The notes under the pieces: generated by a model
Told to the model about the DNA's origin: nothing
Seen by the model: the letters and a program-made list of their open reading frames with translations, nothing else
Database searches by the model: none
Shown: positions 1,804 to 60,829 of the stretch, in pieces
Position numbering within the stretch: the first letter of the stretch is position 1
Layout of the letters: each line of letters begins with the position of its first letter
From: a virus
DNA: 64,000 bases
Direction: 5' to 3' (one strand)
Virus record (IMG/VR): IMGVR_UViG_3300013767_000193
Location: 50-64,049 of that record
Program-made: the position numbers and the translations under genes

Positions 1804-4743
1804 TCAGACGGCTTCGGCCACGGCCTGCAGCGGGGGGAGCATCGCATCAGCGTCCAGCTTGGCCAGGTCGAACACCACGCAGGTCGTCTTCGTCCCCGGC
1901 GCCGTGGTGCCGCGCGCTAAGTTGAACGCTTCGTGGTCGGAGACCAGCACGCCGGCCTGGCGGGCCCCGTCGAGCAACGCTGAAAAGTCCGCCCGGCGGT
2001 CCGTGCACCAGTCCATCACCGCCCGCTTGGACATGTAGAGGCGGCCGTCATACGTACCCGGGTTGGACGGGTTGCCGATGATCCGCCGGCCGGCGATCTC
2101 CTGCGTGATCCGCACCTCCTCGGGTGCCGACCGCGTGCCCGTGGCGTAGCCCCAGGTCGAGATGATACGTGGCGCCAGGCTGTTCACCATGCGGGCCAGC
2201 AGGTCCTCGTCGCTCGCCATGTTCTGGGTCTGCACCTCGAGCTGCATCTCGTGCAGCATGTTCACCACGAATGGGACCAGCCGATTCATGTCGAAGTAGG
2301 CGATGCCCAGGTCGACCAGGATCTGCGCCGCCACCAGCGTCACCGCCGCATGCGCGCGATAGTTCCGGTATGGCTCGCCCAGCACCCGGCTCTCGAGCAT
2401 GCTGCGCATGAGCGCGACGTCCGTGATGACCTTCTCGAGGTTGGTCGTGACGTAGCGCACGAATGCCTCGCCGGCGTGCCCGCAGTTCTGCTGCATGGTG
2501 GTCAGCGCGGCTGCCACAAAGCCCGCTGGGTGCACCGGGAGCGCGTACTTATCGATGCGCACCTGGACGATCCGCACCGCCTCCGCGGCCGAGTTGTCCT
2601 TGTGCTGCGCCAGGCGGGCGTGCAGGTCGGTGTTCGCCGTGATGTAGGGCGCCATCATCCAGGTCCGCGGCTTGGCCAGGCCCACGCCCGTGGCGGTGGC
2701 CAGCATGCGGGACTTCTCGATGCCCGACGACACGTCATAGGCCCAGGCGCTCAGCTCGGCCGGGTCGATGTCGGTGAACTCGTCGAACAGGATCGGCAGG
2801 TTGTTGTGCGTGCCCATGAAGCCAGGGCGCGCCGCCACCGTGGAGGACTTGGTGTGCGTCATGCGCCGCGCGTCGCCGAAGCCCGCCAGCGCCGCGTTGC
2901 ACACGGTAGTCTTGCCGCGCGCCGTGCGTGGGCCGGTGATGGCGAACATGATGCCGGCGTATAGCAGCTCGCCCGAGAAGGGCGTCAGCAGCGATCCAAA
3001 CGCGTTGGCGTAGGCGAACTGCATCGGCTCCATGCCGCGCATGCCATACACCGAGTTCATCGCGCCCACGTAGGCATCCAGCGTGCCGCGGGGCTCGAAG
3101 AAGGCCTCCTCGGCCAGCTCAGCCGCGGAGGAGGACAAGCGCACCTTGCGCTCGACGCCGCTGGTCTCGAAGACTCGGTCGCCAAGCAGGAAAGCGGTGC
3201 GGCGCTTGTCCCAGCCGAAGTTACGCCAGGTCTCCATCTCGGTCACTTGTTTCTTGATCGCCGCGAACGAGTCCGACACGTACGCCGACAGGTGGCGCGC
3301 GGTGTCCTTGGGTTCGCTCGGGATATGTACTGATCGTAGGCTCAATTCTTTCATGAGGTCACTCTGTGAAGCCAGCAGGCTCGACTTGAAGTCCCATTCC
3401 AGCAGGTCGCCCTTGGGCTTGATCAACCTGCACATCACGGAGAAGTCCTTGTCCTCGGACGCCCACCCGTAGACCCAAAAGCGGTCCGAGGTCAGCGTGC
3501 GCAGGGTCGGCACTCCGTCTTCGTTCTCCACCAGGCGCCAGAGTCGGCGGCCGTCCCACCCGTACCCATCCGGCGGCGACGGGATGTCCACCGTGATAGG
3601 TGTCTCATCCTCGGCCAGCGCCTCGACCGTCTCGGCCGAGGTCTCGGGGGCCACCGTGCCCAGCTGGATCGGGCTGGTCAGCGCGAAGCCGCCATCGTCC
3701 TTGCGGTACTGGCACCCCTCGCACCCCTTGGGGTTGTCGGCCTGGAACGAAGCACACGTAGCGGGCCCGGTGTTCCAGTCGTCGAACTTGGCCTCGGTGG
3801 CCTGGGGGTCGTAGGTCTGGTGCCCGCTGCTCCACTCCTGGGCCAGGTCCAGCCCCTCGGTGCAGTGCTTGATGAGGCCTAGGCACTTGAACCAGATGGG
3901 GTACTCGACACAGCCCTGTGTGTCGCGCATCGCCGCCAGCTGGGCGCACTTCTCGGCCACGGCCACGGCGGAGGCCGGGGGGTGGTCCCGCTTCACGGCT
4001 TCGGCCAGGGCGTTCGTGGTGCCGGCCGCCCGCAAATAGGCAGGAACCTCCTCAACAACAGGCGCCAACGTGCTAACAGCTTTGATCGCTGCGAGAAACG
4101 CCTCCGGGGTCGTGGCGCCAGCACCAGGGTGCAGGACCTTGACCCCCTTGCCCTCACCCTTGCGGTTGGTCGTGCCAACCGGGCGCAGGATGGACGAGGC
4201 ATCCGCGGTGCGCGTGGGATCTGCGAGCACTTTGTGCTCGGCCAGCGCCGCCTTGAGACCAGTGGCCACGGCACGCCAGGCGTTCGGGCTGATGTCCTTG
4301 GTCAGGGGCCAGTAGGCGTGCAAGCCATTGCCTGAGCTGACCAGCATCGGGGCCACAAGTCCTACACGTTGGCAGAACTCATAGAGTGCACCGGCGCCTT
4401 CCTTCTTGGTGGCGTAGCCCTTGCCGGCATCGGCCTTGTCCTCGCCGCAGTCGATGTCGACCCAAAAGGACTTGATGCGCCCCATGTTCTCGGCCACGCG
4501 GTAATACTTCCTCATCTCACCAGGCCGCTTCGGGTCGGGCAGAGACACCGACGCCTCCTTGTAGGAGGCGCATGCGTGGTAGACCGTCTTGCCTTGGTCA
4601 TCGAACACCTTGGCCTTCTGAGCCAAGGTCTCGAGCGTGGGGAACAGGACGTGGTACGGGTACGGCTTGTCGCCATCCATGTACGCGAGGTAGTACGGCC
4701 CGACCGCTGGGAGGATGGCGCGGAAAAACTCCAGCGTGTCCAT
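1804..4743 (-). CDS. Primase-helicase fusion (RepB-like/AEP primase, PriCT-2, DUF927-type helicase region)
   Basis: FWVDID, VSSGNGLHAYW, WSSG...KFDDW, GPRTARGKTT and LFDEF motifs. Confidence 0.8.
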   Translation of the reverse strand: MDTLEFFRAILPAVGPYYLAYMDGDKPYPYHVLFPTLETLAQKAKVFDDQGKTVYHACASYKEASVSLPDPKRPGEMRKYYRVAENMGRIKSFWVDIDCGEDKADAGKGYATKKEGAGALYEFCQRVGLVAPMLVSSGNGLHAYWPLTKDISPNAWRAVATGLKAALAEHKVLADPTRTADASSILRPVGTTNRKGEGKGVKVLHPGAGATTPEAFLAAIKAVSTLAPVVEEVPAYLRAAGTTNALAEAVKRDHPPASAVAVAEKCAQLAAMRDTQGCVEYPIWFKCLGLIKHCTEGLDLAQEWSSGHQTYDPQATEAKFDDWNTGPATCASFQADNPKGCEGCQYRKDDGGFALTSPIQLGTVAPETSAETVEALAEDETPITVDIPSPPDGYGWDGRRLWRLVENEDGVPTLRTLTSDRFWVYGWASEDKDFSVMCRLIKPKGDLLEWDFKSSLLASQSDLMKELSLRSVHIPSEPKDTARHLSAYVSDSFAAIKKQVTEMETWRNFGWDKRRTAFLLGDRVFETSGVERKVRLSSSAAELAEEAFFEPRGTLDAYVGAMNSVYGMRGMEPMQFAYANAFGSLLTPFSGELLYAGIMFAITGPRTARGKTTVCNAALAGFGDARRMTHTKSSTVAARPGFMGTHNNLPILFDEFTDIDPAELSAWAYDVSSGIEKSRMLATATGVGLAKPRTWMMAPYITANTDLHARLAQHKDNSAAEAVRIVQVRIDKYALPVHPAGFVAAALTTMQQNCGHAGEAFVRYVTTNLEKVITDVALMRSMLESRVLGEPYRNYRAHAAVTLVAAQILVDLGIAYFDMNRLVPFVVNMLHEMQLEVQTQNMASDEDLLARMVNSLAPRIISTWGYATGTRSAPEEVRITQEIAGRRIIGNPSNPGTYDGRLYMSKRAVMDWCTDRRADFSALLDGARQAGVLVSDHEAFNLARGTTAPGTKTTCVVFDLAKLDADAMLPPLQAVAEAV

Positions 4744-11108: not shown

Positions 11109-11157
11109 GGTGCAAGCTCCCCAAACTAGGCATGGTCTTGTGTTTGTTGTACGAGAC

Positions 11158-11185
11158 AATATACACACTGATTTGGGGAAATCAA
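11158..11185 (-). promoter_or_regulatory. sigma70-like leftward promoter
   Basis: TTGATT-16bp-TATATT; GTGTGTATATTG is identical to 21441-21452. Confidence 0.65.
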
Positions 11186-11201
11186 CTCACATAATATTGC
11201 G

Positions 11202-13109
11202 TTACTTGCAATCTCCGTAGTTGTTACCCGATTCTGCCTCACAGTTAATAGGTAGTCCGGCCGCCCATTTGGGGACTTTTCGCATACATTGCAGCATCAT
11301 GTCGACAAGTTGCTCACGGAACTCGACCGGGCAGACGGCGATCACCTCATCATGTGTGGTCCCGACGACTTTGTGGCGTTTACGAGACACGCGGTCGTCC
11401 AGCTTCCGCAGCTGCTGGTCGATCATCCCCATTTGATTGAAGACGACGATGCGCGCCAGGGCCTGGACGACGTTCTCGACGATCTTGCCACCATACAGCT
11501 TGGTCCACCCGCTGCGGGATTTGTACTCGTAGCCGTCCTTGCCTCGCTTCAGCTCCGGGTAGCGGATCAACATACCGTTGGGTAGGTGGATGCCGTCCTG
11601 GTCCCACTTCAGGGGAATCCCCACGCCGATGTAGCTGGTGAATCCCCGCACGACGTTGCGCATGGCGTCGTCGCACTGCTTCCACAGCTTCGGGATCATG
11701 TGATACTTGCCACGGTACAGGTCAACAACCTGCTGCGCGAACGTCAGGCCGCCGGGGATCTTCTCCTTGCGCAGCTGCCGCTCGAAGTTATCGGCCCCCA
11801 TCCCGAACCCAAGGCCGAGCACAGCGGTCTTGCCCACGAAGCCTTCCTTGAACATCGGGAACACTTCCTTGCCGTCGACGATCTCCTTGAACTTCCGGTT
11901 GATCGGCCGCCCGTAGATGTCCGAGGCAAACTTGGAGTAGATGTCCACGCCGGCCGCGAAGTCATCCACCAGGTCCTGCTGTCCGGCCCACCAGGCCACC
12001 ACGCGCGCTTCGATGGCCGCCGAGTCGCAGGCCGCGACCACATGGCCAGGGGGCGCCTTCATCGCCTTGCGCAAGTTGCCACCGCGGGGCAGGTTCTGCA
12101 GGTTTACCTTGTCCCCCCCACTGCCGCGGCCCGTGTGCGCGCCGTAGTAGTTGTAGTAGATGGGTAGGGCACCGCGGTCACTGATGCCGATGAACGATTG
12201 CGTGCGGGTCTCTTCCAGGGTGGATTTGACCCCTAGGCGGGCGGCGACCACGGCTTGGACGCGGGGGTCTTCGTGTTCCAGCAGCGCCTTGAACCCCTCA
12301 TCCGTTTTGGAAAAGGCGTACGTGTAGACCGGCTCGCCCCCTGGGTTCGTCTTGGCGTTGGCGGTCTTCGCCACACTGATCTTTGTGGGTGGCTCGACCC
12401 CCAACTTCTCCAGGATCTGTGCGAGCTGGTCGTTGGACATCAGCCCGTCCTTGCCACACACCTGCTCGACGCGCGCCAGCAGCCGTTCCTTCTTGGCCTG
12501 CACCTCGTTGAGGTGCTCCCGCAGCGTGGTGCGGTCAAACTCGACCACCGGGTCCGTGAACATGCGGATAAGCATGTCGATGAGGTAGAGCTCCTGCGGC
12601 GTGCTGAACTGCTGCAGCACCTGGAACAGGATGTAGGTCAGCTCCACATCGTTGACACAGTAGCCGCCGTACTCCTGCAGCTGGCTCGGGGTAAAGTCGG
12701 CGTAGCGCATGCCCAGGGCCTTGATGACCTCGGTGCCCTTTTCGCCGAGCATGAACTTCTTCGCCAGCGCGGCGAGCGATACCCCCACGGTCTGCCCCGT
12801 CACCGGCCGCGCCATGGACATCGTGTCCAGCAGCATCGCCGGGTGGGTGTCGTAGTGCCAGGCCATGATAGCTGCGTCGAACGCCGTATGGTGGCAGAGC
12901 ACCTTGCGCTTCTCGAGCTGCAGTGACTTGATGTGCTTGCCCACCTCGGGGCCTGGCACCCAGTACGCGCGCTCGTCGTTGATCTTGAACCCGCACATGA
13001 TGGTCTCGAAGCGCGGGTCCCGGATGTAGGACTCCGTGGTCATCTTCGACAGGGAATAATCCTTCGCGTAGTGAGTCTCAAAATCTAGGGTCACGAGATC
13101 AGGCTGCAC
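11202..13109 (-). CDS. Family A DNA polymerase with 3'-5' exonuclease
   Basis: DFETHY, HHTAFD, YCVND; motifs CDSAAIEAR, KTAVLGLGFG, HDE. Confidence 0.93.
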   Translation of the reverse strand: MQPDLVTLDFETHYAKDYSLSKMTTESYIRDPRFETIMCGFKINDERAYWVPGPEVGKHIKSLQLEKRKVLCHHTAFDAAIMAWHYDTHPAMLLDTMSMARPVTGQTVGVSLAALAKKFMLGEKGTEVIKALGMRYADFTPSQLQEYGGYCVNDVELTYILFQVLQQFSTPQELYLIDMLIRMFTDPVVEFDRTTLREHLNEVQAKKERLLARVEQVCGKDGLMSNDQLAQILEKLGVEPPTKISVAKTANAKTNPGGEPVYTYAFSKTDEGFKALLEHEDPRVQAVVAARLGVKSTLEETRTQSFIGISDRGALPIYYNYYGAHTGRGSGGDKVNLQNLPRGGNLRKAMKAPPGHVVAACDSAAIEARVVAWWAGQQDLVDDFAAGVDIYSKFASDIYGRPINRKFKEIVDGKEVFPMFKEGFVGKTAVLGLGFGMGADNFERQLRKEKIPGGLTFAQQVVDLYRGKYHMIPKLWKQCDDAMRNVVRGFTSYIGVGIPLKWDQDGIHLPNGMLIRYPELKRGKDGYEYKSRSGWTKLYGGKIVENVVQALARIVVFNQMGMIDQQLRKLDDRVSRKRHKVVGTTHDEVIAVCPVEFREQLVDMMLQCMRKVPKWAAGLPINCEAESGNNYGDCK

Positions 13110-23195: not shown

Positions 23196-23392
23196 GCTTC
23201 CCCCGCAGAAGAGGCGCGCATCAGGTCGCGCGCAATGTCGTTTTCGGTTTCGCCAAACATGATCAGGAATCGGCTCCCGCTTAGCCCGACCTCCGAGCCA
23301 TCAAACACAATTGGCTTGCCTTCCTGCAGCTTTTCCAGATTGAGGCGCGACAGGCCAAAGATGACCAGATCGCCAGATGTTGCCTTGATCAT
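23192..23392 (-). CDS. Small hypothetical protein
   Basis: 66 aa, coupled junctions. Confidence 0.65.
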   Translation of the reverse strand: MIKATSGDLVIFGLSRLNLEKLQEGKPIVFDGSEVGLSGSRFLIMFGETENDIARDLMRASSAGEA

Positions 23393-24381
23393 TGCTTCTC
23401 TCCCTCGTTGGGCGCCTCAGCGGCGGCGAGCCGTGCGTACACATACTGGCGCAATCGTTTCATCGACTCATCCAAAAGAGATCCTCTGTCGCAATAGGCA
23501 GGAGTTCTCGACTGAACAATGATGTCGAGATACTCAACAACCACACGAATGTCATCAATGCGCGTAGCATCCCGCTCCGGCACGGCTTGCGCCTCCGCAC
23601 GCGGAGACGAGGCGCGCTCTTTTCGCAGGTAGACGGCAGCATCCATCAAATGGCCGCGCGCTTGGTCGGATAAGTATGCGGCGCTGCCCTCCGCAATCTG
23701 TTCGAAGATGCGCGCGTATTGCTCATCAAGCTCCGACAGCGCGCCTTGCTGCCGAGATGGCGCCGCCTCAGCAATCACTGACAGAATCCGCCCCTCATCA
23801 TCCTGCCGCGTTACAGCGAGGATATGAGTGTGCGTCTCATCCCACGTTACGACCACTTCGCCGCGCGCATCCTCTGCCTCAACACGCGACACAAGCCCAT
23901 CATCGTGCGACTGCCAGTGACGACCGCGTTCATCGTATTCGGCGGATAGCTTCGGGGCATCCTCTGCGGGCGTGGAACTAGATTGTTCCTTGTGTAGCTT
24001 GCATGTTGGATCGAACACATTGCAGCCTGTTTCGCGCGGATACCCGCATTGGCACAGCAACGCATCTTCTGCGGGCTGGGCGGCGAGTAGGGCGCGAGCG
24101 CGATGCAATACCTTCTCGGTTCGCGGTCCATAGCAGCCATTGCCGATGCACCAGTCCAACTCTGCAATCAGGCTCTGCTGCTCATCGGTCAGCGCGGCAG
24201 GCGATGCCGGCGCAGGGGCGGCGGCGTTGGCGGCCATCCATTCTGCCGTGCGCTTATGCTGATTCCACAGCGCCGCGATGGGGGGGGAGAAGTATGTCCC
24301 CCGCAGCCGGTGCTGCTTGAGGTTGCGCCCCTTGTGCTGCCGCTCGAATTCCTGGCGCAGCTCTGCCTCACTCGGTGCCAT
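23389..24381 (-). CDS. Mosaic early protein with repeated PAEDA linkers
   Basis: 330 aa from MAPSEAE; lower GC3. Confidence 0.7.
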   Translation of the reverse strand: MAPSEAELRQEFERQHKGRNLKQHRLRGTYFSPPIAALWNQHKRTAEWMAANAAAPAPASPAALTDEQQSLIAELDWCIGNGCYGPRTEKVLHRARALLAAQPAEDALLCQCGYPRETGCNVFDPTCKLHKEQSSSTPAEDAPKLSAEYDERGRHWQSHDDGLVSRVEAEDARGEVVVTWDETHTHILAVTRQDDEGRILSVIAEAAPSRQQGALSELDEQYARIFEQIAEGSAAYLSDQARGHLMDAAVYLRKERASSPRAEAQAVPERDATRIDDIRVVVEYLDIIVQSRTPAYCDRGSLLDESMKRLRQYVYARLAAAEAPNEGEKQ

Positions 24382-24383
24382 GT

Positions 24384-24716
24384 TCACTCCTCGTCCTCGT
24401 TGGCCAGCCACAGCCACGCCTGCACCCACTTGCCGCCCTCGCCTTCGCTGGTGATGGCGTCGTGGTCGATCTCGATGTCATCGCTCCAGCCGTAGTGGTC
24501 ACGCAGCATCTCGCGCTCGTCCTCGGACACATGGGCCAGGTCGTCGAGCACGGCACCCAGCTCGGCCACGTGTGTGGCCAGCTCGTTCCAGTCGTCTCCG
24601 GTGGGGGGCACGGCATCGTTGCCGGTGCCATCACCATGCGGGTCGTTCATCTTCTGGGCCTGCTGCGTGACGAACGCCACCAGCCTCTGCGCTTCCTCAA
24701 TGATGCGCATGTTCAC
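24384..24716 (-). CDS. Acidic hypothetical protein
   Basis: 110 aa, ends WVQAWLWLANEDEE. Confidence 0.7.
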   Translation of the reverse strand: MNMRIIEEAQRLVAFVTQQAQKMNDPHGDGTGNDAVPPTGDDWNELATHVAELGAVLDDLAHVSEDEREMLRDHYGWSDDIEIDHDAITSEGEGGKWVQAWLWLANEDEE

Positions 24717-25640: not shown

Positions 25641-25669
25641 ATGCTAACAACATACACACGATGGGTCAA
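25641..25669 (-). promoter_or_regulatory. sigma70-like leftward promoter
   Basis: TTGACC-17bp-TAGCAT. Confidence 0.6.
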
Positions 25670-25969: not shown

Positions 25970-26491
25970 TTACTTTTTAACCAACAGCTGCCGCCCCAGC
26001 ATTGAGCCGGCCGCATCCTTCAGTACCCCAGCGGCGAAGACATCCAAGGCGATGCCTGCCGCGGCCGCCATGGCTTGGAACTTGACCATATCCGGGCGGC
26101 GCAGCCTAACCACCACGTGCTCGTAGGGGTCAAGGTCGCCCTTAGCCTTGGCGCCCTCGGCGCGCATCTGCTCCTCGGAGGGCAGGTTGAAGTGCTTCTC
26201 CATGAAGTTCTTCATGACGCCATACCAGGGGGGTTGGCCGGGGCGGCGGTGCGTTTCCCGGATCTGCTCGAAGGACGCAGTGACCTCGGTGCGCTTGGTG
26301 TACTCAGCCTCCAATGCTTCTCGGACCAACGTGGCGGGGGAGTACACTTTGGACTTTCGCCCCTTGGAGTTGAGCGGCTGCCGCTCAGTTTCCACCCTCG
26401 ACAATTCCTTCAGCGTGCGGTACCACTCGGGGTGGATGAGCACCCCGCACACGCTAACCCTGCCGGTCGTGCCGGCGGCTGTTCTACCCAT
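25970..26491 (-). CDS. Probable DNA-binding regulator with two RHH-like segments
   Basis: CGVLIHPEWYRTL...TLVREALE and VVVRLRRPDMVKFQAMAAAAG. Confidence 0.45.
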   Translation of the reverse strand: MGRTAAGTTGRVSVCGVLIHPEWYRTLKELSRVETERQPLNSKGRKSKVYSPATLVREALEAEYTKRTEVTASFEQIRETHRRPGQPPWYGVMKNFMEKHFNLPSEEQMRAEGAKAKGDLDPYEHVVVRLRRPDMVKFQAMAAAAGIALDVFAAGVLKDAAGSMLGRQLLVKK

Positions 26492-26503
26492 GGCTTATCT
26501 CCT

Positions 26504-26871
26504 AACCCATACACGATTGACGATCCCATACACGATGGGCGTTTTCCCATACCTAAAGCGGGCTACATGCCGTGGATCCCGCTCTGGTGGCCAGTCGCAA
26601 GTATACACGATGCGTCTAAACCATACACTTAGCATCTAAGCAAAAGGGTATACCCCCTCCAGTGAGAATTTCGTGTGCTTCGTGGAAATTTTTTTGTACG
26701 CAAAAATTTTCGCTCGCGCACGTATATCCTTTTTCTTAGATGGTACGTGTATGGTTTAGGTAGTGAGTTTATAGATAAGAACGGCCACCAGAGCGGGATC
26801 CACAGCGTGCACCCCAGGTTATGTATGGGAAAACTGGGCCCGTGTATCAACATCCAGGCTATGTATGGTTT
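26504..26871. repeat. Large imperfect palindrome, axis at 26687/26688
   Basis: Arms 26541-26653 and 26722-26834 match 87/113 ungapped (hand count); perfect 21-bp core. Confidence 0.93.
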
Positions 26872-27181
26872 TTCTAAAAACCGTGGCGTCCACCAAGCGC
26901 ACCAAAACCATAAGCCCCGCTTGGATAAACGACCCCGTTCCGGCATAGAAATGTGATAAACATATATCTAAATGCAATACACGGCCCGTCTATTGCGATA
27001 CACGGCTATCTAACCACATTAGACGATCATGTATGTAAGTTAGTAGGTGCTAACCTATTGTCCGCACCTAGCAACAACGTACACACATCGGACTGGTCTC
27101 TTCAGCACACGCCTGACGTGTGGATGCACCAAGCCCACCAAGTGAGCCTGGTGCATTTCGACCTGCACAACCGTGGCGAAC

Positions 27182-27826
27182 TTAAGCCACCTTGAGCTCG
27201 GGCAGCGGCGTGGCGTCCTCCATGGCATCCTCCATGGCGTCCTCGGTGCCCACAATCCCCTCCACGCGCTTGAACAGTTCAATGTTGGTGGCGTTGGCAA
27301 CCTCCAACAACCGCTCCAACTCGGCGATGCGGGCCTTGGCGACTTCGGACTCGACGAACTTACCGACGATGGCGCGCACCTCGCCGGCCGCCTCGGCGTC
27401 CACGGTGTCCAGCCGCTTGGCGCACTTGTTGAGCGCATCCATGGCGCGGCTGTGCGCCTCCCCCACCAGTGCCTTGGACTTCTTGGCCTTGGCCGCGGCC
27501 TGTTCCGTGGCGACCACCGGCGTGGCCATGGCGAAGCCAAAGGCCTTGTTTTGTTGCTTCGGATCGACCACGCAGACCACCTTGTACAGCGTGTCGCCCA
27601 CGGCCGGCGGGCTCACCTCCAGCCCGGCGCGCTTGAACCACGCCGCCACCGGGCGGCGCAGGTAGACCGGCAGCACGTCCAGCATGAACTGGGCATACTC
27701 CAGGTCCTGGTTGGCATAGGCCGCCTTGACGGCCTGCTCACCGAGTGCACGCAGGTTCTCCGCATCGTTGAAGCTGCGGTTGGCAAGAGCCTTGACGCGC
27801 TGGATGAATTGCTTAGCGAGTGCCAT
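27182..27826 (-). CDS. First early gene, hypothetical
   Basis: GAGGGAG SD, 214 aa. Confidence 0.8.
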   Translation of the reverse strand: MALAKQFIQRVKALANRSFNDAENLRALGEQAVKAAYANQDLEYAQFMLDVLPVYLRRPVAAWFKRAGLEVSPPAVGDTLYKVVCVVDPKQQNKAFGFAMATPVVATEQAAAKAKKSKALVGEAHSRAMDALNKCAKRLDTVDAEAAGEVRAIVGKFVESEVAKARIAELERLLEVANATNIELFKRVEGIVGTEDAMEDAMEDATPLPELKVA

Positions 27827-27969: not shown

Positions 27970-28859
27970 AAGTAGCCCCCCGGCGGCGCAGACCACGCCC
28001 CGCCGGGCGACTAGTTAGGTTTGGCCCGTTATTGCGCGCCACGGTGCCGGGCGCTAAGTGAGTGAGTTTCTCGGTGCGGATAGTTCGGGCAAGCCTGCCG
28101 CGCAGTGTCGTGAGCACGTCGTACACAATGCCTTTGCCAAGGACCGACTGGCGACATGCCGCGGCCACCGCATGCACTCAGTGAATGCATGGCTTACATG
28201 ACGTCTGGCATAGCGGCGCTCCGGTCGCACCTTCCCTGCGGTAGCCTGACTGCGGCTGCGCCCCTCGAAGGTGCACGGTACATTAGGTCGTTTCGTGCTG
28301 CGCCCAGTTGCGCCCTAGTGCGGTTGAGTGCTTGAACCCGTCCGCCAAAACGGCGCGGACTGGTACCCTCGGTGCACTAGGTGCTAACAGGCTGCGAACT
28401 ACCCACGTTGTTAAAGATCGGTGCCGGACTGGGCGCTATGCCCGGTCCCGTCCTACACTCGTCCCTTGTCCGGTTGACGGCCCGGCCTACATCCTCGGTG
28501 GCTGCGTGAATCTGCTAACAAACGAGGCCCTACGTCCTAGGTGGCTTGGTGAATTTGGCCTATCTACCGGTAGGTAGGGTAGGGGGGCATGGACCCAGCG
28601 TGGGCGAGGGGGCCCCCCTCTTTGCCCACCTCGTGCACTGCGAGCCCCAATTTTCACCTTTGTGTATGCGCAAACCTCTTCACATACACACGGCTACCGG
28701 TTAACATGCCCTCAACTAACCCCATACCTCGAACCATCTGGCAGATGTGGCGCCCTCGGGCGGACTTCATGGGGGCCTGCGCACAGCCTGAATCTGCCGC
28801 GGCGCTGACACCCCGGAAAGACGGGGGGACCCCAAACACACCTAGCCCATGGAGAACAC

Positions 28860-30444: not shown

Positions 30445-31851
30445 ATGAGCGCAGTCACCTATACCCCCCCGCCGTCGCTGCTGGAGTTCTTCACGAGCGA
30501 TAAGTTCATCAACCTGGTGATGGGACCCGTGGGCTCCACGAAGACCACCGCCATGATCTTGAAGATTGCCCATGAAGCGAAACGCATTGCGCCTTGCCGC
30601 GATGGTGTTCGCCGCAGTCGTGCTATTTGGGTACGCCAGTCGCGCGAACAGCTCCGAGACACCTCAATCCCTGACTTCCTGCGCTGGTATCCAGACGGCC
30701 TGGCAGGGACTTACGAAAAAACGAACTATAAGTTCACCTTACGCTTTGACGACGTCGAGTGTGAGGTACTGTTCCGCGGCCTTGATGACGCGGCTGACGT
30801 TCGACGTCTCCTCTCCCTGCAGGCCACGTTTGGTATTGCCGACGAATTCCGGGAACTGAACCCGGCCGTGTTCATGGCGCTGCAGGGGCGCCTGGGGCGC
30901 TACCCCTCCAAGGCGGACAACGGGGTGGGGTGCAAGGACGACTTCGGCAACCAGATCGACAAGTTTTGGGGGGCCTCGAACCCGCCGGACTTCGACACCT
31001 GGTGGGAAGAGTACCTGAACAACCCGCCGGACAATGCCGCGTGCTTCTTCCAACCCTCGGGCACGTCGCCGGAAGCCGACTGGCTCCAGTACCTGAAGGA
31101 CGGGTACTACGAGAACCTGATGGAGGGCAAGCCGCAGAACTGGATCGATATCTATGTGCACGGCCGGTTCGGCGCGTCCCTGTCCGGCAAGCCCGTGTTC
31201 CCGGCGTTCGACCGCAGCGTGCACATAGCCAAGCAGCCCCTGACGCCGATTCGGATCTCGACCCACCCGCTGCTGATCGGGCACGACTTCGGCCTGACGC
31301 CGGCCTGCACCATCAGCCAGGTCGACCCCCGCGGGCGCCTGATCACGTACGCCGAGCTGACCAGTGACGGCATGGGTGAGCTGCGCTTCCTGCGCGAGAA
31401 GCTCAAGCCCATGCTGGCCACGCCGCGCTTCTCCGGCATGAACGTCCTGATCGTGGGGGACCCGGCCGGCACCCAGCGGTCGCAGACCGACGAGAAGAGT
31501 GTGTATGACATCATCCGGGCCGAGGGCTTCCGGGTGGTGGCGGCCAAGACCAACTCGATCCCCGCACGGATCTCCGGCGTCGATGCCTGGCTCACCCGCA
31601 TGGTCGATGGCAAGCCAGCCCACGTCATTGACGGGACGCATTGTCCGACCTTGGTGCGGGGCCTCGCCGGCGGGTATCGCTACAAGCTCCGGCAATCGGG
31701 GGACGCCGACGACAAGCCGGAGAAGAACATGTACTCCCACTTGCTAGACGGGCACCAGTACGCCTGCCTGCACGCGAACGGCAACCTCACCGGCGGCAGC
31801 ACGCGCACCCAGGCTCGCCCGGTCGAGCGGGTCAGTTGGTTTTACTCTTAA
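30445..31851 (+). CDS. Terminase large subunit
   Basis: GPVGSTKT, IADEF, GHDFG, GDPAG, SHLLDGHQY. Confidence 0.92.
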   Translation: MSAVTYTPPPSLLEFFTSDKFINLVMGPVGSTKTTAMILKIAHEAKRIAPCRDGVRRSRAIWVRQSREQLRDTSIPDFLRWYPDGLAGTYEKTNYKFTLRFDDVECEVLFRGLDDAADVRRLLSLQATFGIADEFRELNPAVFMALQGRLGRYPSKADNGVGCKDDFGNQIDKFWGASNPPDFDTWWEEYLNNPPDNAACFFQPSGTSPEADWLQYLKDGYYENLMEGKPQNWIDIYVHGRFGASLSGKPVFPAFDRSVHIAKQPLTPIRISTHPLLIGHDFGLTPACTISQVDPRGRLITYAELTSDGMGELRFLREKLKPMLATPRFSGMNVLIVGDPAGTQRSQTDEKSVYDIIRAEGFRVVAAKTNSIPARISGVDAWLTRMVDGKPAHVIDGTHCPTLVRGLAGGYRYKLRQSGDADDKPEKNMYSHLLDGHQYACLHANGNLTGGSTRTQARPVERVSWFYS

Positions 31852-37534: not shown

Positions 37535-38223
37535 TGGGCCTGATCACCGGGACACAAGTCATCAACAAAGCGGCAACCCAGCTCCTGGATGCTGCCAATA
37601 CCCGCTGGACCCGGTCGGAGCTGATGGGGTGGATGAGCGACGGGCAGCGCCAGATCGTTCAGATCCAGCCCAACGCCAGTGCTACCACCATCGCCTTTCC
37701 GCTCGTCGTTGGCACCCGGCAGATACTGCCCGCCGATGGTTACCTGCTGCTCGACCTCTACCGGAACATGGGCGCCAACGGCACCACCCCGGGTCGCGCG
37801 CTGCGCGTGGTCTCGCGTTCGGTGCTCGACGGGCAGAACCCCAACTGGCACACCGACACCGCGTCGAACATCCAGAAGAACTTCGTCTACGACATGCAGG
37901 AGCCCCGCTCGTTCTACGTGTGGCCTCCCTCGGACGGCACCAACCAGGTTGAGCTGTGCTACTCGCGCACGCCGGCCGAGATCACCGACGAGACCCAGCC
38001 GCTACTGATTGGCGACGTGCTGCAGACCGCGCTGCTGGACTACGTGCTCTTTCGCGCGAACTCCAAGGACGCCGAGTATGCGCCGGGGGTTGAGCTGGCG
38101 AAGATGTACCAGGAATCGTTCGCGCAGGCCATGGGCAAGGTGGCGGTGCTGGAAGAAACGAACAACCCGAACCAGACGCTGGGTGGCAGGAACGCCCAGC
38201 CGATGCCAGGAGCTAACTCGTGA
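37534..38223 (+). CDS. Head-tail adaptor-like protein (DUF6682-like)
   Basis: RWTRSELMGWMSDGQR, FYVWP, LLDYVLFRA. Confidence 0.7.
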   Translation: MGLITGTQVINKAATQLLDAANTRWTRSELMGWMSDGQRQIVQIQPNASATTIAFPLVVGTRQILPADGYLLLDLYRNMGANGTTPGRALRVVSRSVLDGQNPNWHTDTASNIQKNFVYDMQEPRSFYVWPPSDGTNQVELCYSRTPAEITDETQPLLIGDVLQTALLDYVLFRANSKDAEYAPGVELAKMYQESFAQAMGKVAVLEETNNPNQTLGGRNAQPMPGANS

Positions 38224-58100: not shown

Positions 58101-60829
58101 ACCTGCCGGAGCCGCTGCAGGGCCCCGCACGCAAGTTCGCGGACAACATGGGGCACTGGGTCAAGACGGGCGCCCAGGCGGTGGTGGACGGGCACAACCT
58201 GGCCGGCTGGGCGAAGCAGACGCTCGGCATGGACAAGCCCACCGAGTACATGAAGGCCGTCTCCGCGCAGACCGCGCACAAGGTGGACTTGGATCACCAG
58301 CTCGGCGAGATCGGCGAACCGGCCTCGGCGCTCAAGACGCACGAGCGTCGGGAAGTTGGCGAGTACCTGCGCGACGCGACGCTGGGCAAGAAGTGGGGGT
58401 ATGAGGCCCCCTGGCGCGCTTGGCCGGAGCCGGCCGACCCAGACATGGCCAAGCGGTTCGAGGCACTGTCGCCGGAGGCCCAGCGGGTGGTGCAGGCCAT
58501 CGAGGAGCATGGCGACAAGCAGCGCCAGGACTTCCAGCTTGCCAACAAGCAGATGCAGGAGCTGGGCGTCGAGGGCAAGGACCTGCTGACGATCCCCGAC
58601 ATGGTTGGGCCCTACACCCCGCTGCGGCGCTTCGGGGACTTCGTGGTCCATGCCCAGTCGCCGGAGATGCTGGATGCGCGCGCGGCGGGCAACACGGCCA
58701 AGGTCGAGGAGCTGAAGAAGGACAGCGCCCACTACTACTACGGGCAGGAGGAGAGCTACGCCGCGGCCCAGGCCAAGGCGAACGAGCTGCGCGACGCGGG
58801 CTTCGAGGGCCAGGTGGACGCCATGGCCAAGGATGAGTACCGCAAGAACTTCGGCGTGGATGAGCTGGCCGCGCTGCAGAAGCTCGCCCAGCGCGTGGAG
58901 ACCGCCGCCGGCAAGGCGAAGAGCCCCCGGTACGCCAAGGCGTTCGCACAGATGGTCACGAACATGCAGGAGCGGATCCTGGCGGACAATGCGTCCCGGG
59001 CCCAGCGCATGAGCCGAACCGGCGTGGTCGGCGTGAAGGGGGGCGAGATGCTGCGGGGCTTCTTCGAGACGGCCCAGCGCCACAACTCGATGATGGCCCA
59101 CCTCACCCATGGTGACGCGGTGCAGAAGGCCATGGCCGCCATGCACGCGGAGGTCGGCCAGGGGCCGGACAGCGACAACCGTAAGCGCCGCCAGGACATC
59201 GTCAACGAGTTCGTGAAGCGCGAGGCCGCGGTGCTGGACAACCCGCGTCCGAACCGGTACGTGGATGGCTTCATGCATCTGAACGCGTTCTGGCGCCTGC
59301 TGGCCTCGCCGACGCACTACCTGCCCTACCTGACCCAGCCGATGGCGATCCACATCCCGCTGCTGTCGCGCTTCGGGTACGGCCGCGCCTGGGCCGAGTC
59401 CATCAAGGCCCTGCGGGACACCGCCAAGCTGGGCAACGATGCGCCGGATATCCGCAAGCACGTCGGGAAGATCGGCCGGGAGGCGGAATTCCTGCAGGCG
59501 GCTGAGCGGGCCAACCTGCTGAACACCCGCCACGAGAGCGAGTATGGCAACCCCAAGCTGTACGCGGACGACATGACCTCGCACGCCCAGGCGGCCATCG
59601 ACAAGGTCATGAAGATCGCCCAGCGCATCGAGGCATTCAACCGCGTTAGCTCCGGCCTGGCCGCCTACCGCCTGGCCTACCAGGACGCGATCAAGCAGGG
59701 CAAGGACGCCAGCGCCGCGCACACGGCGGCCGAGACCTACGCCATGAACTCGATCCGCGAGGCGTACTTCGACTACACGCTGGCCAACAAGCCCCGCGTG
59801 CTGATGGCGGGCAACTGGGCCGGCAAGAACGCCGCGCTTGGCAACGTGGCCAAGTTCGCCACGCAGTTCAAGCAGTTCAGCCTGCAGCACACCGCGCTGG
59901 TCGGCAAGCTGGTCTACCAGGCGTTCAAGGGGGCCTCCAAGGAGGAGCGCGCTGTCGGGCGCAAGATGTTTACCACCATGGCCGCGCACTACGGGGTGCT
60001 GGCCGGGATGGCCGGGATGCCGCTGGGCTTCCTGATGCTCCACATGGCGCACGCGCTGTTCGGGAAGAAGGACGACACCGACGAGACCACCATGCGCAAG
60101 CTGATCGGCAACGACCGTGTGGCGGACTTCGTGCTACATGGGGCGCCAGCGGCCATGGGGGCGGATCTGACCCACAGCATCGGCATCGGTGACCTGCCGA
60201 ACCCGTACCCTGGACTCGGCGAGAAGCTGGGGCGGGCCAAGACCGCCGGGGACGCCGTGGGTGAAGTGCTCAAGGCCGCCGCGGGCCCGCTCCTGGGCGA
60301 GCAGGTGCCGCAGATGCTGCGCGGCATGGGCAAGATCCTGGACGGCGACTACCACGGTGGCTTGACGGAGATGGCGCCGAAGGGCCTACGGGACGCCATC
60401 AAGGCCGCTGACATGGCCCGCGACGGGGTGACCAACTCACGCGGGGACGTGATCGTCAAGCCGGAGGACCTCTCCACGCTGAATACGCTGCTGCGTGGGC
60501 TCGGGGTGCCACTGCTGGCTGAGGAGAAGACGCGCGACCGGCAGCAGTCAGTGGATAACGCGACCCAGGCGTTCCAGCACAAGTTCTCCGTGCTCAAGCA
60601 GGAGTACCTCAAGCCGAACGCGGATAGGGCGGATGTCGCTCGCCGCTGGGCCGACCTGCAGGCCGAGCAGCGCGACGCGGACTTTAGCCAGGTGACGCCG
60701 ATCAGCGAGCTGTACAAGGCGCCGTTCCAGAAGCAGAAGCGCGAGATGTTCCAGCGGGACGGGGTGGAGACCACCAACCGCACCCGCGGTGCGGTCAATC
60801 GGATGCTGGAAGCGGAAGGGGCGGAGTAA
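52190..60829 (+). CDS. Large polyvalent ejection protein (muramidase-like, HTH, two zincin MPTase, LPD23, PLxRFG domains)
   Basis: ESGG...GYLGKYQ; EIAKRLGLDRSTVSK; HELGH; TGWF..S.DGEWRHEIDD; HELQH; PLRRFG. Confidence 0.85.
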   Translation: MADGFVKDADQPTVTVSAPQKRDTEGFVKDDGFVRDGAAPTSPPPGQSPYENLKVGDETATWGKFVPDAVISGKQGLNSFMDSMHSLANAATGHVLDNREQRVAAQDELVKKYGLTEKTAQLAEINGVSDYQFKNRLLEAQKSARGQAMDEADKQASFGQATSNAISNPGHAADMIATKAGEMGPMMGMGGLTAKGASALRSVAADFGLQAFGDTEQALHDKGADAAHSYGGGAVAGAVTGAATAIGGKYIEPAAEWAASKIPFVGDFLRRRVAGAINMGAQGSAMAGGTKVGENVGEGKPAGEGVGDAVAQSLPSSLLTGAALPFHGRGALAAKPADQPAAAPRPATQPPGQPPAPGTLSPENLVRYGASVAHTESGGKYDTTNQLGYLGKYQLGAVALTDLGYVKPGTTQEQLADPAHWTGKDGVANPQDFLTNHTVQEQAFAQYTQNNLAALAKLGLIKPGMSQAEIAGMLKGAHLGGPGGVAAAVNGQNRADANGTTVADYMKQGADALGGQAQPENTAGIMPEHPSDVAAQIAAIREPTSEKDTALISANTALPQLPPDLLAIKLHDGATLVTSNPEKAKVAQDHNGQLTTDQLGELLGYTTRKADSDGTVVQALDRNGNVVHEEATNAQGVADAHANADRMAPAGGFVRVTTADNAIAERGAMAKGDKKVTQQRRDEAITQELQAKYGHPQPIAGPDGKPLEGKSTWNGKTFNTAEERARAVSSMIKKELQKTPAQRTAELLAAHAFNEVHGRMPTEAELKKLAGYGLTGISSEASAAANIHHAIGEVEASYTPDASGKSKAKGDISLNEDLPVLKSLYEKLTGQHYGEGINSGTSTSGVDTESGKHASAPAHAADQGSRPAEGAPATEGAAPAEAGQGQGGAAVPGSEPGHVRDGSAEGAAAEAGAKREVRGVSDTPATELSPQAQRVVGTIKLNKEKRNGQAAQPSRQVQEPAGDVPGQRGVGPDAVRPAGEPRRPAGEQGGAARDGSVRTEGTGDSRPAGDAVVRGSGNEPGAPAEPEVKPHAREDEDEAKHRRVADIVGSLFPDTDKGRRNRDIILAHYAGDTATEIAKRLGLDRSTVSKLVSDKAIQAMMPRLLEELERRGISRQDFMEDLAAHAADAPDTGGVEEGAEDSTPRVSDELGGGEDGKERQSMGTIQSIGGSQSEWADTDSASERWIKAKEAGDEAGMRAAEEELKKVPADEMGFTTSEERARDRWDQLADEHNAPLQFDDLPEEARKEFSDYVRNGHGNLNDMNKIIEDHDAGKYDTDEEEDSSYASRSKKLEALEEHYQGVADMHTWLAQHDLAHIEGSVDHWHVVSADELDGAHADFYTDERGESHVRLSQELLDSGDTEFIKQNMNHELGHGVDMADRGGVYSIQPEMRVAIDRKTNEVVPVGAVAKELHALWQDDTLGELGYPFDRERFGGLTDKAVQKEMFAQVWSMFNQSTGWRSHLQRVAPKTYEFFKDVETDVRQQPASAFSDRSRIGAAERGQAFQERKSRRNTQVPVDAGSGRASPWGNPERTARVLAAANEPDRRAATYAGRLADTADHDQLAAAKARVRMGDDPESVRKDTGWFQSSVDGEWRHEIDDSGARLKRPWDEVERSPVIGQPVEHQIGDVLDHPELLKAYPELRDVKITKRSPFLDFNQAIQGWFDPRTKQLNITPYAQDPLSTMLHELQHWVQHKEGFDQGGNTASTNLANPEVLGKLAARVKDNLTGLKDLKTPLANAHRKIQEEQLGALRAIVDRLPKLQEQQKQQEQIRQQMADLEKEKAALKQKYDDQHATAMEAWKQTQPEAKQRRDAARDRQWDNRLSAEERAAAAEEYKVAQAAYLNSITKTPGRDWQSEMAERKALDDRIKELKRDDEGIEKAKFDGVPNIDKLKHQAYELISGEREARDVQKRMDLTPAQRKSIKPYSHEGIKDEHTIRPPKESYASQSQKLSSVEEREKARESTTAKVIRNLPEPLQGPARKFADNMGHWVKTGAQAVVDGHNLAGWAKQTLGMDKPTEYMKAVSAQTAHKVDLDHQLGEIGEPASALKTHERREVGEYLRDATLGKKWGYEAPWRAWPEPADPDMAKRFEALSPEAQRVVQAIEEHGDKQRQDFQLANKQMQELGVEGKDLLTIPDMVGPYTPLRRFGDFVVHAQSPEMLDARAAGNTAKVEELKKDSAHYYYGQEESYAAAQAKANELRDAGFEGQVDAMAKDEYRKNFGVDELAALQKLAQRVETAAGKAKSPRYAKAFAQMVTNMQERILADNASRAQRMSRTGVVGVKGGEMLRGFFETAQRHNSMMAHLTHGDAVQKAMAAMHAEVGQGPDSDNRKRRQDIVNEFVKREAAVLDNPRPNRYVDGFMHLNAFWRLLASPTHYLPYLTQPMAIHIPLLSRFGYGRAWAESIKALRDTAKLGNDAPDIRKHVGKIGREAEFLQAAERANLLNTRHESEYGNPKLYADDMTSHAQAAIDKVMKIAQRIEAFNRVSSGLAAYRLAYQDAIKQGKDASAAHTAAETYAMNSIREAYFDYTLANKPRVLMAGNWAGKNAALGNVAKFATQFKQFSLQHTALVGKLVYQAFKGASKEERAVGRKMFTTMAAHYGVLAGMAGMPLGFLMLHMAHALFGKKDDTDETTMRKLIGNDRVADFVLHGAPAAMGADLTHSIGIGDLPNPYPGLGEKLGRAKTAGDAVGEVLKAAAGPLLGEQVPQMLRGMGKILDGDYHGGLTEMAPKGLRDAIKAADMARDGVTNSRGDVIVKPEDLSTLNTLLRGLGVPLLAEEKTRDRQQSVDNATQAFQHKFSVLKQEYLKPNADRADVARRWADLQAEQRDADFSQVTPISELYKAPFQKQKREMFQRDGVETTNRTRGAVNRMLEAEGAE
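54687..54950 (+). CDS. Nested +1-frame gene A (87 aa, Pro/Lys/Ala-rich)
   Basis: AGGA 7 nt before ATG; 71/87 codons end in G/C; internal PKVQP repeat. Confidence 0.6.
   Translation: MAKVSIPAPAPRVSTPKVANMQAPRPTQPIKAAAPLKAPPPPKVQPLPKQARAKAVPQFRDPNRDMYAMDLPKVQPPKPAPSGKFGG
55029..55274 (+). CDS. Nested +1-frame gene B (81 aa)
   Basis: AAGGAG 7 nt before ATG; 74/81 codons end in G/C while the outer frame drops to about 37%. Confidence 0.72.
   Translation: MDKLHNHHDKCKNLPGTCPDSAGWDPMQFDQQVSHDDRLASKEEPHETAAYERKEQEIAARLGMPLYVVAEMNLAHRPNRK
56628..56900 (+). CDS. Nested +1-frame candidate C (90 aa, Pro-rich tail)
   Basis: AAGGA upstream; rare codons in the outer frame over the first half. Confidence 0.35.
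   Translation: MSDSNRLQRFRIARGLAQQSEAKPFRSVSPAGIPKFRSMPDPGVPAPGATPSAPPASSPPPTSPTAGPQPTPDASPTPPTTTSSPPPKPV

What the first reader, a model, noticed from the sequence alone, without database searches (positions are those of the whole stretch)
26504..26871. 370-bp ungapped imperfect palindrome with iteron-like motifs: candidate origin or packaging site
Seen: five separate inverted matches share exactly one axis (coordinate sum 53375): 21 bp at 26572-92/26783-803, 13 bp at 26616-28/26747-59, 11 bp at 26542-52/26823-33, 8 bp at 26633-40/26735-42 and 7 bp at 26528-34/26841-47. The arms match 87/113 with no indel around a 68-bp spacer with A/T runs. CATACAC recurs at 26508, 26527 and 26622, inverted at 26747, and also at 25651, 27933 and 28662/28683. 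Known: P4-type origins have inverted iterons bound by a primase-helicase. Inference: this is a bidirectional origin or a terminase/end site. Substitutions without indels suggest spacing is under selection.
Basis: partly seen in the sequence, partly recalled or inferred. Interest (0 to 1): 0.78.

Follow-up and report, generated by a model that had tools for sequence, protein, structure and literature searches.

The report
Mirror-symmetric protein-binding array in prophage
A 368-bp imperfect palindrome in a Cupriavidus-type prophage is real: two mirror-image rows of short binding sites flank the easiest-to-melt DNA of the phage. It is most likely the replication origin or, nearly as likely, a large operator for the neighbouring regulator gene, so it is a familiar kind of control element and not a new one.

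Summary
One axis (coordinate sum 53375) gives 115/184 ungapped inverted matches; the window-wide mean is 49 (sd 7.3) and the next best axis scores 81.

The palindrome lies in a 690-bp low-GC gap inside the leftward early operon of an integrated podophage related to HMO-2011 and RHph_TM3_14A.

Arm mismatches are strongly clustered. Perfectly kept blocks alternate with randomised spacers. The blocks are five ccATACAC sites per arm at about 20-bp spacing, plus one 21-bp GC box per arm.

The centre is homologous to a non-coding core at the same place in three related phages. In each genome this element holds the least stable duplex, or ties for it.

No test here fixes the function.
- Best reading (0.40): a lytic replication origin of the SaPI/P4 design, served by the phage's DUF927 primase-helicase.
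- Close rival (0.35): an operator array for the adjacent ribbon-helix-helix-like protein. That gene neighbours the element in all four phages, and stray ATACAC sites sit at nearby promoter-like motifs.
- Weakly supported or not supported: packaging site, structured RNA, MITE or neutral relic.

Interest is modest.

The parts
26492..27181 (.). Low-GC (48.6%) non-coding gap between two leftward early genes; the whole control element
   Evidence: ORF and GC3 map, composition, no credible ORF. Relatives G1, G2 and G3 have a 450-690-bp gap at the same place.
26504..26671 (+). Left arm of the palindrome, with five ccATACAC-type sites in + orientation: 26502-14, 26521-33, 26542-54 (ATACCT variant), 26596-608, 26616-28
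   Evidence: start-to-start spacing is 19, 21, 54 and 20 bp.
26704..26871 (-). Right arm, the ungapped mirror image, with five sites in - orientation: 26747-59, 26767-79 (ATAAAC variant), 26821-33, 26842-54, 26861-73
26572..26592 (+). 21-bp GC-rich box GTGGATCCCGCTCTGGTGGCC, left copy
   Evidence: Perfect inverted pair. These are the only two matches in the window at up to 3 mismatches; 0 expected.
26783..26803 (-). 21-bp GC-rich box, right copy
26654..26721 (.). 68-bp non-symmetric spacer with A3T7 and A5T4 tracts and three (A/T)(C/G)GTG pentamers about 10 bp apart. Candidate unwinding element, homologous to the conserved core of relatives.
   Evidence: 12/34 inverted matches, which is random. 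The 150-bp and 80-bp windows of least duplex stability in the whole 69-kb record lie at window 26628-26777 and 26702-26781. Alignment A1.
26917..27042 (.). Further sites outside the palindrome: + orientation at 26948, 26969 and 26990 (21-bp spacing, ATACACGGC), a weak one at 26917, and - orientation at 27025
   Evidence: Weight-matrix scan; direct repeat D15.
27039..27156 (-). Hairpins after the stop of the upstream gene (27124-56: 15-bp stem, 3-nt loop; 27039-75) and one GTTAGCA promoter-like motif (27048-54) pointing into the palindrome
25970..26491 (-). 173-aa orphan protein (P0001) starting 10 bp from the outermost site. Candidate tandem ribbon-helix-helix DNA-binding protein and possible binder of the array.
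   Evidence: No Pfam, PHROG, NCBIfam or PDB hit. ESM-Atlas neighbours are RHH families (ParG, Arc, RHH_1/3, NikA-like, MobC, CB_ParB_C; scores 0.86-0.89, TM 0.52-0.59). The AF2 model is poor but shows strand-helix-helix twice. A counterpart in relatives has the same neighbours.
27182..27826 (-). 214-aa first early gene, upstream of the element. Family of unknown function, with homologues at the same place in relatives.
1804..4743 (-). 979-aa primase-helicase (prim-pol, PriCT-2, DUF927 helicase, 200-aa C-terminal domain). Candidate origin-binding initiator, 22 kb from the palindrome.
   Evidence: Pfam. PDB matches: 5dgk SCCmec Cch 6e-6, 8tch SaPI protein 0.017. The C-terminal domain is the fastest-evolving part.
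28662..28707 (+). Stray inverted pair GTGTATG-N14-CATACAC overlapping the -35 of the only sigma-70-like promoter of the region (TTCACA-17-TAACAT), which reads toward the late genes
25642..25657 (-). Stray ATACAC site abutting a GTTAGCA promoter-like motif ahead of the next early gene

Best explanation
The palindrome is a conserved cis-acting assembly site for sequence-specific DNA-binding proteins, most likely the phage's lytic replication origin. Two mirror-image rows, each with five ccATACAC sites and one 21-bp GC box, would position two copies of an initiator complex head to head on either side of the AT-rich centre. The candidate initiator is the DUF927 primase-helicase, acting through its fast-evolving C-terminal domain. 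The centre is the easiest DNA to melt in the genome. It would open, and two helicase rings would leave in opposite directions, with the prim-pol domain and the phage PolA starting synthesis. Early transcription arriving from the upstream gene could help opening. Shown: the symmetry, the block-and-spacer mosaic, the unique clustering of sites, the minimum of duplex stability, the conserved core and position in relatives, and the helicase family. Inferred: who binds, melting, and any replication function.
For: The symmetry is far above chance. Mismatches are clustered: the longest mismatch run is 14 and there are 24 match runs, with no permutation of 20,000 reaching either value; the sum of squared run lengths gives p = 0.0007. 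So blocks and their register are kept while spacers are randomised. Sites recur at a 19-21-bp period and occur in excess only here. The element holds the least stable duplex of the whole genome in G0 and G2 and ties for it in G1. The central ~130 bp and the position are conserved in G1, G2 and G3, and weak dyad symmetry about the same axis appears in two of them (nhmmer self-reverse E about 1e-4). Both flanking genes point the same way, so divergent transcription does not explain the mirror symmetry. The phage carries its own replisome, and its primase-helicase is related to SCCmec Cch and a SaPI protein. No iteron array lies beside that gene that could compete as origin. The C-terminal domain diverges most between phages whose sites differ. 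SaPI origins are described as about 300 bp, with iterons oppositely disposed around an AT-rich region and A/T tracts between inverted iterons (bioRxiv 10.64898/2026.10.17.759575).
Against: The element is 22 kb from the primase-helicase gene, whereas SaPI-type origins abut it. Cumulative GC skew falls steadily from 1.3 to 54.9 kb with no turn at 26.7 kb. No DnaA box with one mismatch or fewer lies in the gap. The relatives' homologous elements show no clear iteron rows; their repeated TGCTAAC is a genome-wide promoter-like motif. A winged helix in the C-terminal domain could not be shown. An RHH-like gene next to the array, and stray sites at promoter-like motifs, fit a regulator better. Zero indels is only weakly significant.
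Confidence: 0.4

Rival explanations
1. It is an operator array, not an origin. The adjacent 173-aa ribbon-helix-helix-like protein binds the ATACAC sites cooperatively in the leader and promoter region of its own gene, and also at stray sites on neighbouring promoters. This forms a large, possibly looped repression complex that sets the early-to-middle or lysogeny switch.
For: An RHH-like gene follows the element in all four phages: first gene in the window, second in relatives. Two proteins with no detectable similarity to each other share the same RHH-family neighbours in the ESM Atlas. The RHH-like gene and the element are among the few parts of this variable region kept between G1 and G2 (72% protein identity, against 23% for the upstream gene). 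The array ends 10 bp from the start codon. Of 10 exact CATACAC copies outside the gap, 4 lie in 3.1 kb of nearby non-coding DNA beside promoter-like motifs. The relatives' element carries 3-4 GTTAGCA promoter-like motifs and a TGTACA-17-TAGAAT site.
Against: The RHH assignment is only a lead: no family or PDB hit, and AF2 pLDDT is 44-46. The 19-21-bp spacing is wider than the 7-11 bp usual for RHH arrays (own knowledge). No sigma-70 promoter is found inside the palindrome. Mirror symmetry has no transcriptional rationale between two co-directional genes. At weight-matrix level, hits outside the gap match chance.
Confidence: 0.35
2. It is a packaging (pac/cos) site or a virion genome end recognised by terminase.
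For: It is a large non-coding symmetric site in a phage whose virion ends are unknown.
Against: It lies 2.8 kb from the putative small terminase gene and 3.6 kb from TerL, with a gene and a 1-kb promoter region between them. It sits inside the early operon. The relatives' contig ends are uninformative: a 127-bp overlap equals an assembler k-mer.
Confidence: 0.05
3. It acts as RNA. Transcribed in the early leader, it would fold into a roughly 370-nt hairpin that serves as an RNase III or regulatory site.
For: Both strands fold at about -174 kcal/mol (z -12 to -14). A co-oriented promoter-like motif lies upstream at 27048.
Against: The fold follows trivially from the DNA symmetry. There is no strand bias in G-U pairs (13 vs 10), and 31 of 54 mismatches are transversions. 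The consensus fold with relatives is weak (-23 kcal/mol, covariation term -0.8). The only Rfam match is a sub-threshold microRNA-precursor hit, expected for any long hairpin.
Confidence: 0.04
4. It is a decaying inverted duplication or a MITE-like insertion with no function of its own.
For: Imperfect palindromes of this size are typical of MITEs. Zero indels is only weakly significant.
Against: There is no second copy in the record and no target-site duplication. The centre and arm blocks are homologous to the relatives' resident element. The mismatch mosaic rejects even decay. No similar sequence was found in the phage, plasmid or viral-contig searches.
Confidence: 0.06

Closest known systems
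SaPI / PICI replication origins with Rep or PriRep5 self-loading helicases
   Same: About 300 bp. Short iterons are oppositely disposed around a central AT-rich region, with A/T tracts at the presumed melting points. The initiator is a primase-helicase fusion with a C-terminal DNA-binding domain (bioRxiv 10.64898/2026.10.17.759575). The window's helicase core matches a SaPI protein and SCCmec Cch.
   Different: SaPI origins lie directly after the rep gene; this element is 22 kb away. SaPI iterons are 5-7 bp and closely packed; here the period is 19-21 bp, with an extra 21-bp GC box per arm. A winged helix in the C-terminal domain was not demonstrable. This is a full-size tailed phage with its own PolA.
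Phage P4 ori/crr with the alpha protein, and pRN1 ORF904 with ORF56
   Same: A primase, a superfamily-3-type helicase and a C-terminal DNA-binding domain sit in one chain (PMC2777425). P4 iterons occur in both orientations and at a second distant site (own knowledge). pRN1 pairs such a replication protein with a small RHH repressor, ORF56 (PMC4234260).
   Different: P4 alpha has a DnaG-type primase and 8-bp iterons. No sequence similarity of the sites. The pRN1 origin lies next to its gene.
RHH operator and centromere arrays (R1 ParR-parC, pSM19035 omega heptads, P22 Arc/Mnt)
   Same: Rows of short repeats lie upstream of the gene for a small RHH protein. parC has two sets of five repeats flanking a core (own knowledge).
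   Different: Those repeats are contiguous at 7-11 bp, and in parC they are all direct. A promoter lies inside the array. Centromeres need a ParA or ParM partner, and none is seen here. The RHH fold of the 173-aa protein is unproven.
Phage lambda-type and plasmid iteron origins
   Same: Repeats of about 19-22-bp period lie next to an AT-rich unwinding region (PMC7466680 in the list; statement on typical plasmid origins in PMC2777425).
   Different: The lambda origin lies inside the initiator gene with direct iterons. Plasmid origins usually carry DnaA boxes, which are absent here.

Membership tests
SaPI/PICI-type origin (self-loading helicase) | Two sets of short iterons in opposite orientation flanking an AT-rich region | tested here: met
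   Five + and five - oriented sites flank a 68-bp spacer that contains the global stability minimum.
SaPI/PICI-type origin (self-loading helicase) | Origin immediately downstream of the rep / pri-rep gene | tested here: not met
   The primase-helicase gene is at 1804-4743 and the palindrome at 26504-26871. There is no repeat array at 1040-1900.
SaPI/PICI-type origin (self-loading helicase) | Initiator helicase of the Rep/Cch kind with a C-terminal winged-helix domain that reads the iterons | tested here: inconclusive
   The helicase core matches 5dgk (6e-6) and 8tch (0.017). A C-terminal-domain profile of 35 homologues has no PDB match. The C-terminal domain is the most divergent part.
SaPI/PICI-type origin (self-loading helicase) | Supports melting and replication | not testable with these tools
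This needs bench work.
Plasmid/lambda iteron origin | DnaA boxes beside the iterons | tested here: not met
   No TTATCCACA with one mismatch or fewer in the gap. GGATCCACA in the GC box has 2 mismatches.
Plasmid/lambda iteron origin | Cognate initiator gene adjacent to or containing the iterons | tested here: inconclusive
   The adjacent genes are an RHH-like orphan and an unknown 214-aa protein.
RHH operator / centromere array | RHH protein encoded next to the array | tested here: inconclusive
   Atlas leads only. No Pfam, NCBIfam or PDB hit. AF2 pLDDT is 44-46.
RHH operator / centromere array | Promoter inside or abutting the array | tested here: inconclusive
   No sigma-70 site scoring 9/12 or better in the palindrome. 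A GTTAGCA promoter-like motif lies at 27048. Relatives have TGTACA-17-TAGAAT.
RHH operator / centromere array | Contiguous subsites at 7-11 bp; for centromeres, a ParA/ParM partner | tested here: not met
   The spacing is 19-21 bp. No ParA-like gene among the proteins scanned.
pac/cos site | Next to or inside the small terminase gene; virion ends map there | tested here: not met
   Only the location part was tested: the palindrome is 2.8-3.6 kb from the terminase genes. Virion ends were not testable.
MITE / IS remnant | Several copies, target-site duplication, absent from relatives' empty site | tested here: not met
   Single copy in the record, no duplication, and the core is homologous in relatives. 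The host chromosome is not held.
Known structured RNA | Rfam match or covariation | tested here: not met
   Only a sub-threshold microRNA-precursor hit, 31 bits against a 101-bit threshold. Weak consensus fold.

The most novel reading that the evidence does not exclude
A tailed phage of Burkholderiales uses a 370-bp mirror-symmetric origin placed 22 kb from its DUF927 primase-helicase gene. A 130-bp melting core is shared by a small clade, while the iteron rows are lineage-specific. The same sites double as operators for an adjacent tandem-RHH protein, which would couple replication firing to the early transcription switch.
Probability: 0.15. Interest if true: 0.6.

Novelty: new member of a known kind. 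Interest (0 to 1): 0.4.

Why it matters
Neither the replication origin nor the regulatory switch of HMO-2011-like and related soil podophages has been mapped. This element is the best-defined candidate for one or both. Its sites and blocks are mapped to the base, and there are two named candidate binders, so a handful of standard experiments could settle the question. If it is the origin, it extends the head-to-head design known from SaPIs and small DNA viruses to a 60-kb tailed phage whose initiator gene is far away. If it is an operator, it is an unusually large and symmetric one. Either way it is a familiar class of element, not a new principle.

Tried and rejected
- **Similarity searches.** DNA searches in the phage and plasmid collections found no match. 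An exact search for the 21-bp box in viral contigs also found no match.
- **Flanking proteins.** Their relatives were not found by pattern scan or word search.
- **TerL scans.** The genome-contig scan found nothing, and the metagenome scan found only distant marine relatives. So comparative depth is four phages, counting L264, which is like G1.
- **Structure prediction.** AF2 models of the 173-aa protein and of its counterpart were too poor to search with. A profile comparison between the two was not significant.
- **Primase-helicase C-terminal domain.** A profile search against the PDB found nothing.
- **DnaA boxes.** The idea for the GC box was dropped.
- **Chi-like CTGGTGG in the GC box.** This was considered and left as untestable, because the host Chi sequence is unknown.
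- **Hairpin-telomere (protelomerase) site.** Rejected. The centre is not symmetric (12/34), and none of the proteins scanned matched a protelomerase family.
- **Invertible segment.** Rejected. The spacer is 68 bp and no invertase was seen.
- **Coding potential of the arms.** Rejected.
- **Covariation of sites with a protein.** This cannot discriminate. G1 and G2 share the RHH-like protein (72% identity) and the primase-helicase (87%).
- **Pseudomonas phage Rollin.** It has an AT-rich 1.4-kb gap but no long palindrome.

Full report
**Setting.**
The window is positions 50-64049 of a 68,989-base IMG/VR provirus record. Host genes flank it: an enoyl-CoA hydratase at 42-1040, and a Dus gene at 61999-63015 that is 86% identical to that of Cupriavidus sp. 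amp6. A tyrosine integrase sits at 60795-61868.

The prophage has leftward early genes from about 28.2 kb down to 1.5 kb. These include:
- PolA at 11202-13109
- a PD-(D/E)XK nuclease
- an SNF2 helicase
- a DUF2201/VWA protein
- a 979-aa prim-pol/PriCT-2/DUF927 primase-helicase at 1804-4743

Rightward late genes start at 28860. They include TerL at 30445-31851 and an SU10-type portal. The nearest named phages are Rhizobium phages RHph_TM3_14A and kin, followed by the HMO-2011 type; all are distant.

**The observation.**
- The axis with i+j = 53375 gives 115 of 184 ungapped inverted matches. The mean over all axes of the window is 49.0 (sd 7.3), and the next best axis gives 81.
- The arms 26541-26653 and 26722-26834 match 87/113 around a 68-bp spacer.
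- The palindrome lies in a 690-bp gap (26492-27181) of 48.6% GC in a 63.5% GC window. The gap sits between two genes on the same (minus) strand.
- No ORF in the gap is credible.

**Anatomy.**
The 54 arm mismatches are far from evenly spread. The longest mismatch run is 14 and there are only 24 match runs. No permutation out of 20,000 reached either value. The arms are therefore a mosaic of kept blocks and randomised spacers in fixed register.

The blocks are of three kinds:
- Five sites per arm with the core ATACAC(G), often preceded by CTAAaCC. They start at 26502, 26521, 26542, 26596 and 26616, with mirror images in the right arm. Start-to-start spacing is 19, 21, 54 and 20 bp.
- One perfect 21-bp GC box per arm, found nowhere else in the window even at 3 mismatches.
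- A 38-bp inner block that matches 34/38.

Three or four more sites continue to the right of the palindrome in + orientation at 21-bp steps (26948, 26969, 26990), and one lies in - orientation at 27025. With a weight matrix, the excess over shuffles is confined to 26501-27025. The 13-mer at up to 3 mismatches has 6 of its 7 window matches there.

The same element in relatives accumulates 0.03-0.05 gap events per substitution. That predicts 1.6-2.7 events between the arms, so P(0) is 0.07-0.2.

**Relatives.**
TerL retrieved three syntenic phages from viral contigs: G1 (L003), G2 (L004) and G3 (L009). A fourth, L264, is like G1. All share one layout:
1. late genes
2. a gap of about 1 kb
3. a first early gene of 192-214 aa
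4. a low-GC non-coding element of 450-690 bp
5. in relatives only, a small gene
6. a 154-173-aa protein
7. the remaining early genes

The region is otherwise highly variable. BLASTN sees nothing between the window and the relatives upstream of 29990. MAFFT, however, aligns the window's spacer and inner arms to a core of about 130 bp in the relatives.

Within the relatives the element is clearly conserved: nhmmer gives E = 1e-40 to 1e-55. L009 and L004 also match the reverse strand about the equivalent axis at E about 1e-4. The dyad architecture is therefore old, and the window carries an unusually regular version of it.

In G0 and G2 the element contains the least stable duplex of the whole genome. 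In G1 it ties for that position.

**What it is not.**
- *Known RNA.* Rfam gives only a sub-threshold hairpin-type hit. The arms show no strand bias in G-U pairs and many transversions. The consensus fold with relatives is weak.
- *MITE.* It is a single copy with no target duplication, and its core is resident in relatives.
- *Telomere-resolution or invertase site.* The centre is asymmetric.
- *Packaging site.* Nothing links it to packaging. It is 2.8-3.6 kb from the terminase genes and inside the early operon.

**Origin reading.**
Several features together make the classical design of an origin served by a self-loading helicase:
- mirror-image rows of sites on both sides of the most easily melted DNA
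- a two-turn period between sites
- A/T tracts at the centre

SaPI origins are described in just these terms, with a primase-helicase whose C-terminal domain reads the iterons. P4 alpha and pRN1 ORF904 have the same domain order.

The window's primase-helicase belongs to this broad group. It carries DUF927, and its helicase core matches SCCmec Cch and a SaPI protein. Its C-terminal 200 residues and the N-terminal part of the DUF927 region are 39-46% identical to those of G1 and G2. The catalytic domains (prim-pol and P-loop helicase core) are 66-68% identical. No repeat array lies beside its gene. Divergent transcription does not explain the mirror symmetry between two co-directional genes.

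Points against the origin reading:
- The element is 22 kb from the initiator gene.
- Cumulative GC skew falls steadily from 1.3 to 54.9 kb with no turn at the element.
- No DnaA boxes lie in the gap.
- No winged helix could be shown.
- The relatives' elements have no clear iteron rows.

**Regulatory reading.**
The 173-aa protein that starts 10 bp from the outermost site has no family hit. Its nearest named ESM-Atlas clusters are ribbon-helix-helix families: ParG, Arc, RHH_1, RHH_3, NikA-like, MobC and CB_ParB_C. The same families come up for the relatives' 157-aa protein at the syntenic place, although the two proteins share no detectable similarity. Both sequences read as strand-helix-helix twice (and by eye). 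This remains a lead, not a demonstration.

Exact CATACAC copies outside the gap number ten in the window. Four of them lie in 3.1 kb of nearby non-coding DNA:
- one abuts a GTTAGCA motif at 25642
- one lies at 27933 in the early leader
- an inverted pair brackets the -35 of the only sigma-70-like promoter (28679-28707)

.

GTTAGCA itself is a genome-wide motif. It is enriched in intergenic DNA, co-oriented with transcription, and present in all three complete genomes. That makes it a probable phage-specific promoter element. One copy at 27048 points into the palindrome, and the relatives' elements hold three or four copies.

Points against the regulatory reading:
- The spacing is wide for RHH arrays.
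- No promoter is found inside the palindrome.
- The symmetry is left unexplained.

**Verdict.**
The feature is real, functional-looking and conserved. It belongs to a known class: symmetric multi-site protein-binding control DNA.

| Reading | Probability |
|---|---|
| Origin (may overlap with regulatory use) | 0.40 |
| Purely regulatory array | 0.35 |
| All other readings | 0.25 |

The experiments that would decide are simple.

Noticed in passing
window 4071, 6646, 9266, 14545, 17443, 25642, 27048, 28382, 28513 (-); 31855, 34229, 35714, 39466, 49418 (+); also G1 and G2 genome-wide: The heptamer GTTAGCA, in extended form GTTAGCAnGTTGTgtgnTATATG, lies 20-45 nt before start codons. It is co-oriented with transcription in 15 of 18 window copies and enriched in intergenic DNA: 7/17 copies in G0, and 15/28 in G2 (p about 2e-5). 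The spacing does not fit sigma-70. It is a candidate phage-specific promoter, but Pfam found no RNA polymerase gene.
   Followed up: partly
L088:18038-18060 (G1 38038-38060): A perfect inverted pair of consensus DnaA boxes, TTATCCACA-N5-TGTGGATAA, lies in AT-rich intergenic DNA between the end of the early operon and the giant virion gene of relative G1. It is absent from the window and from G2.
   Followed up: partly
window 25970-26491 (-); L087:9609-10082; L091:18863-19327: These orphan proteins of 154-173 aa each appear to hold two strand-helix-helix (RHH-like) units in one chain. They keep their position next to the non-coding element despite no detectable sequence similarity between the window's protein and the relatives'.
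   Followed up: partly
window 1-64000 (G0 1.3-54.9 kb): Cumulative GC skew falls steadily across both the minus-strand early genes and the plus-strand late genes. It turns only at about 54.9 kb, inside the 2879-codon virion gene. G2 shows the same shape. So the skew is not set by transcription direction.
   Followed up: no
window about 11150-11230; G1 about 26431; G2 about 3553: A second conserved minimum of duplex stability lies at the end of the PolA gene in all three genomes.
   Followed up: no
window 27124-27156 and 27039-27075: Strong hairpins lie just after the stop of the 214-aa first early gene: a 15-bp stem with a 3-nt loop, and a 12-bp stem with a 13-nt loop. Neither is followed by a U tract. 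The fold z-score is -3.9.
   Followed up: partly
window 27182-27826 (-) and homologues (alignment A2): The first early gene encodes a protein family of 192-214 aa with a conserved N-terminus and no known domain. G1 and G2 are only 23% identical to each other, while the window's protein is 41% identical to G2's.
   Followed up: partly
window 23196-24383: A stretch of about 1.2 kb in the early operon has no ORF with the genome's usual third-position GC. The only long ORF there (23389-24429, 346 aa) has no family hit.
   Followed up: no
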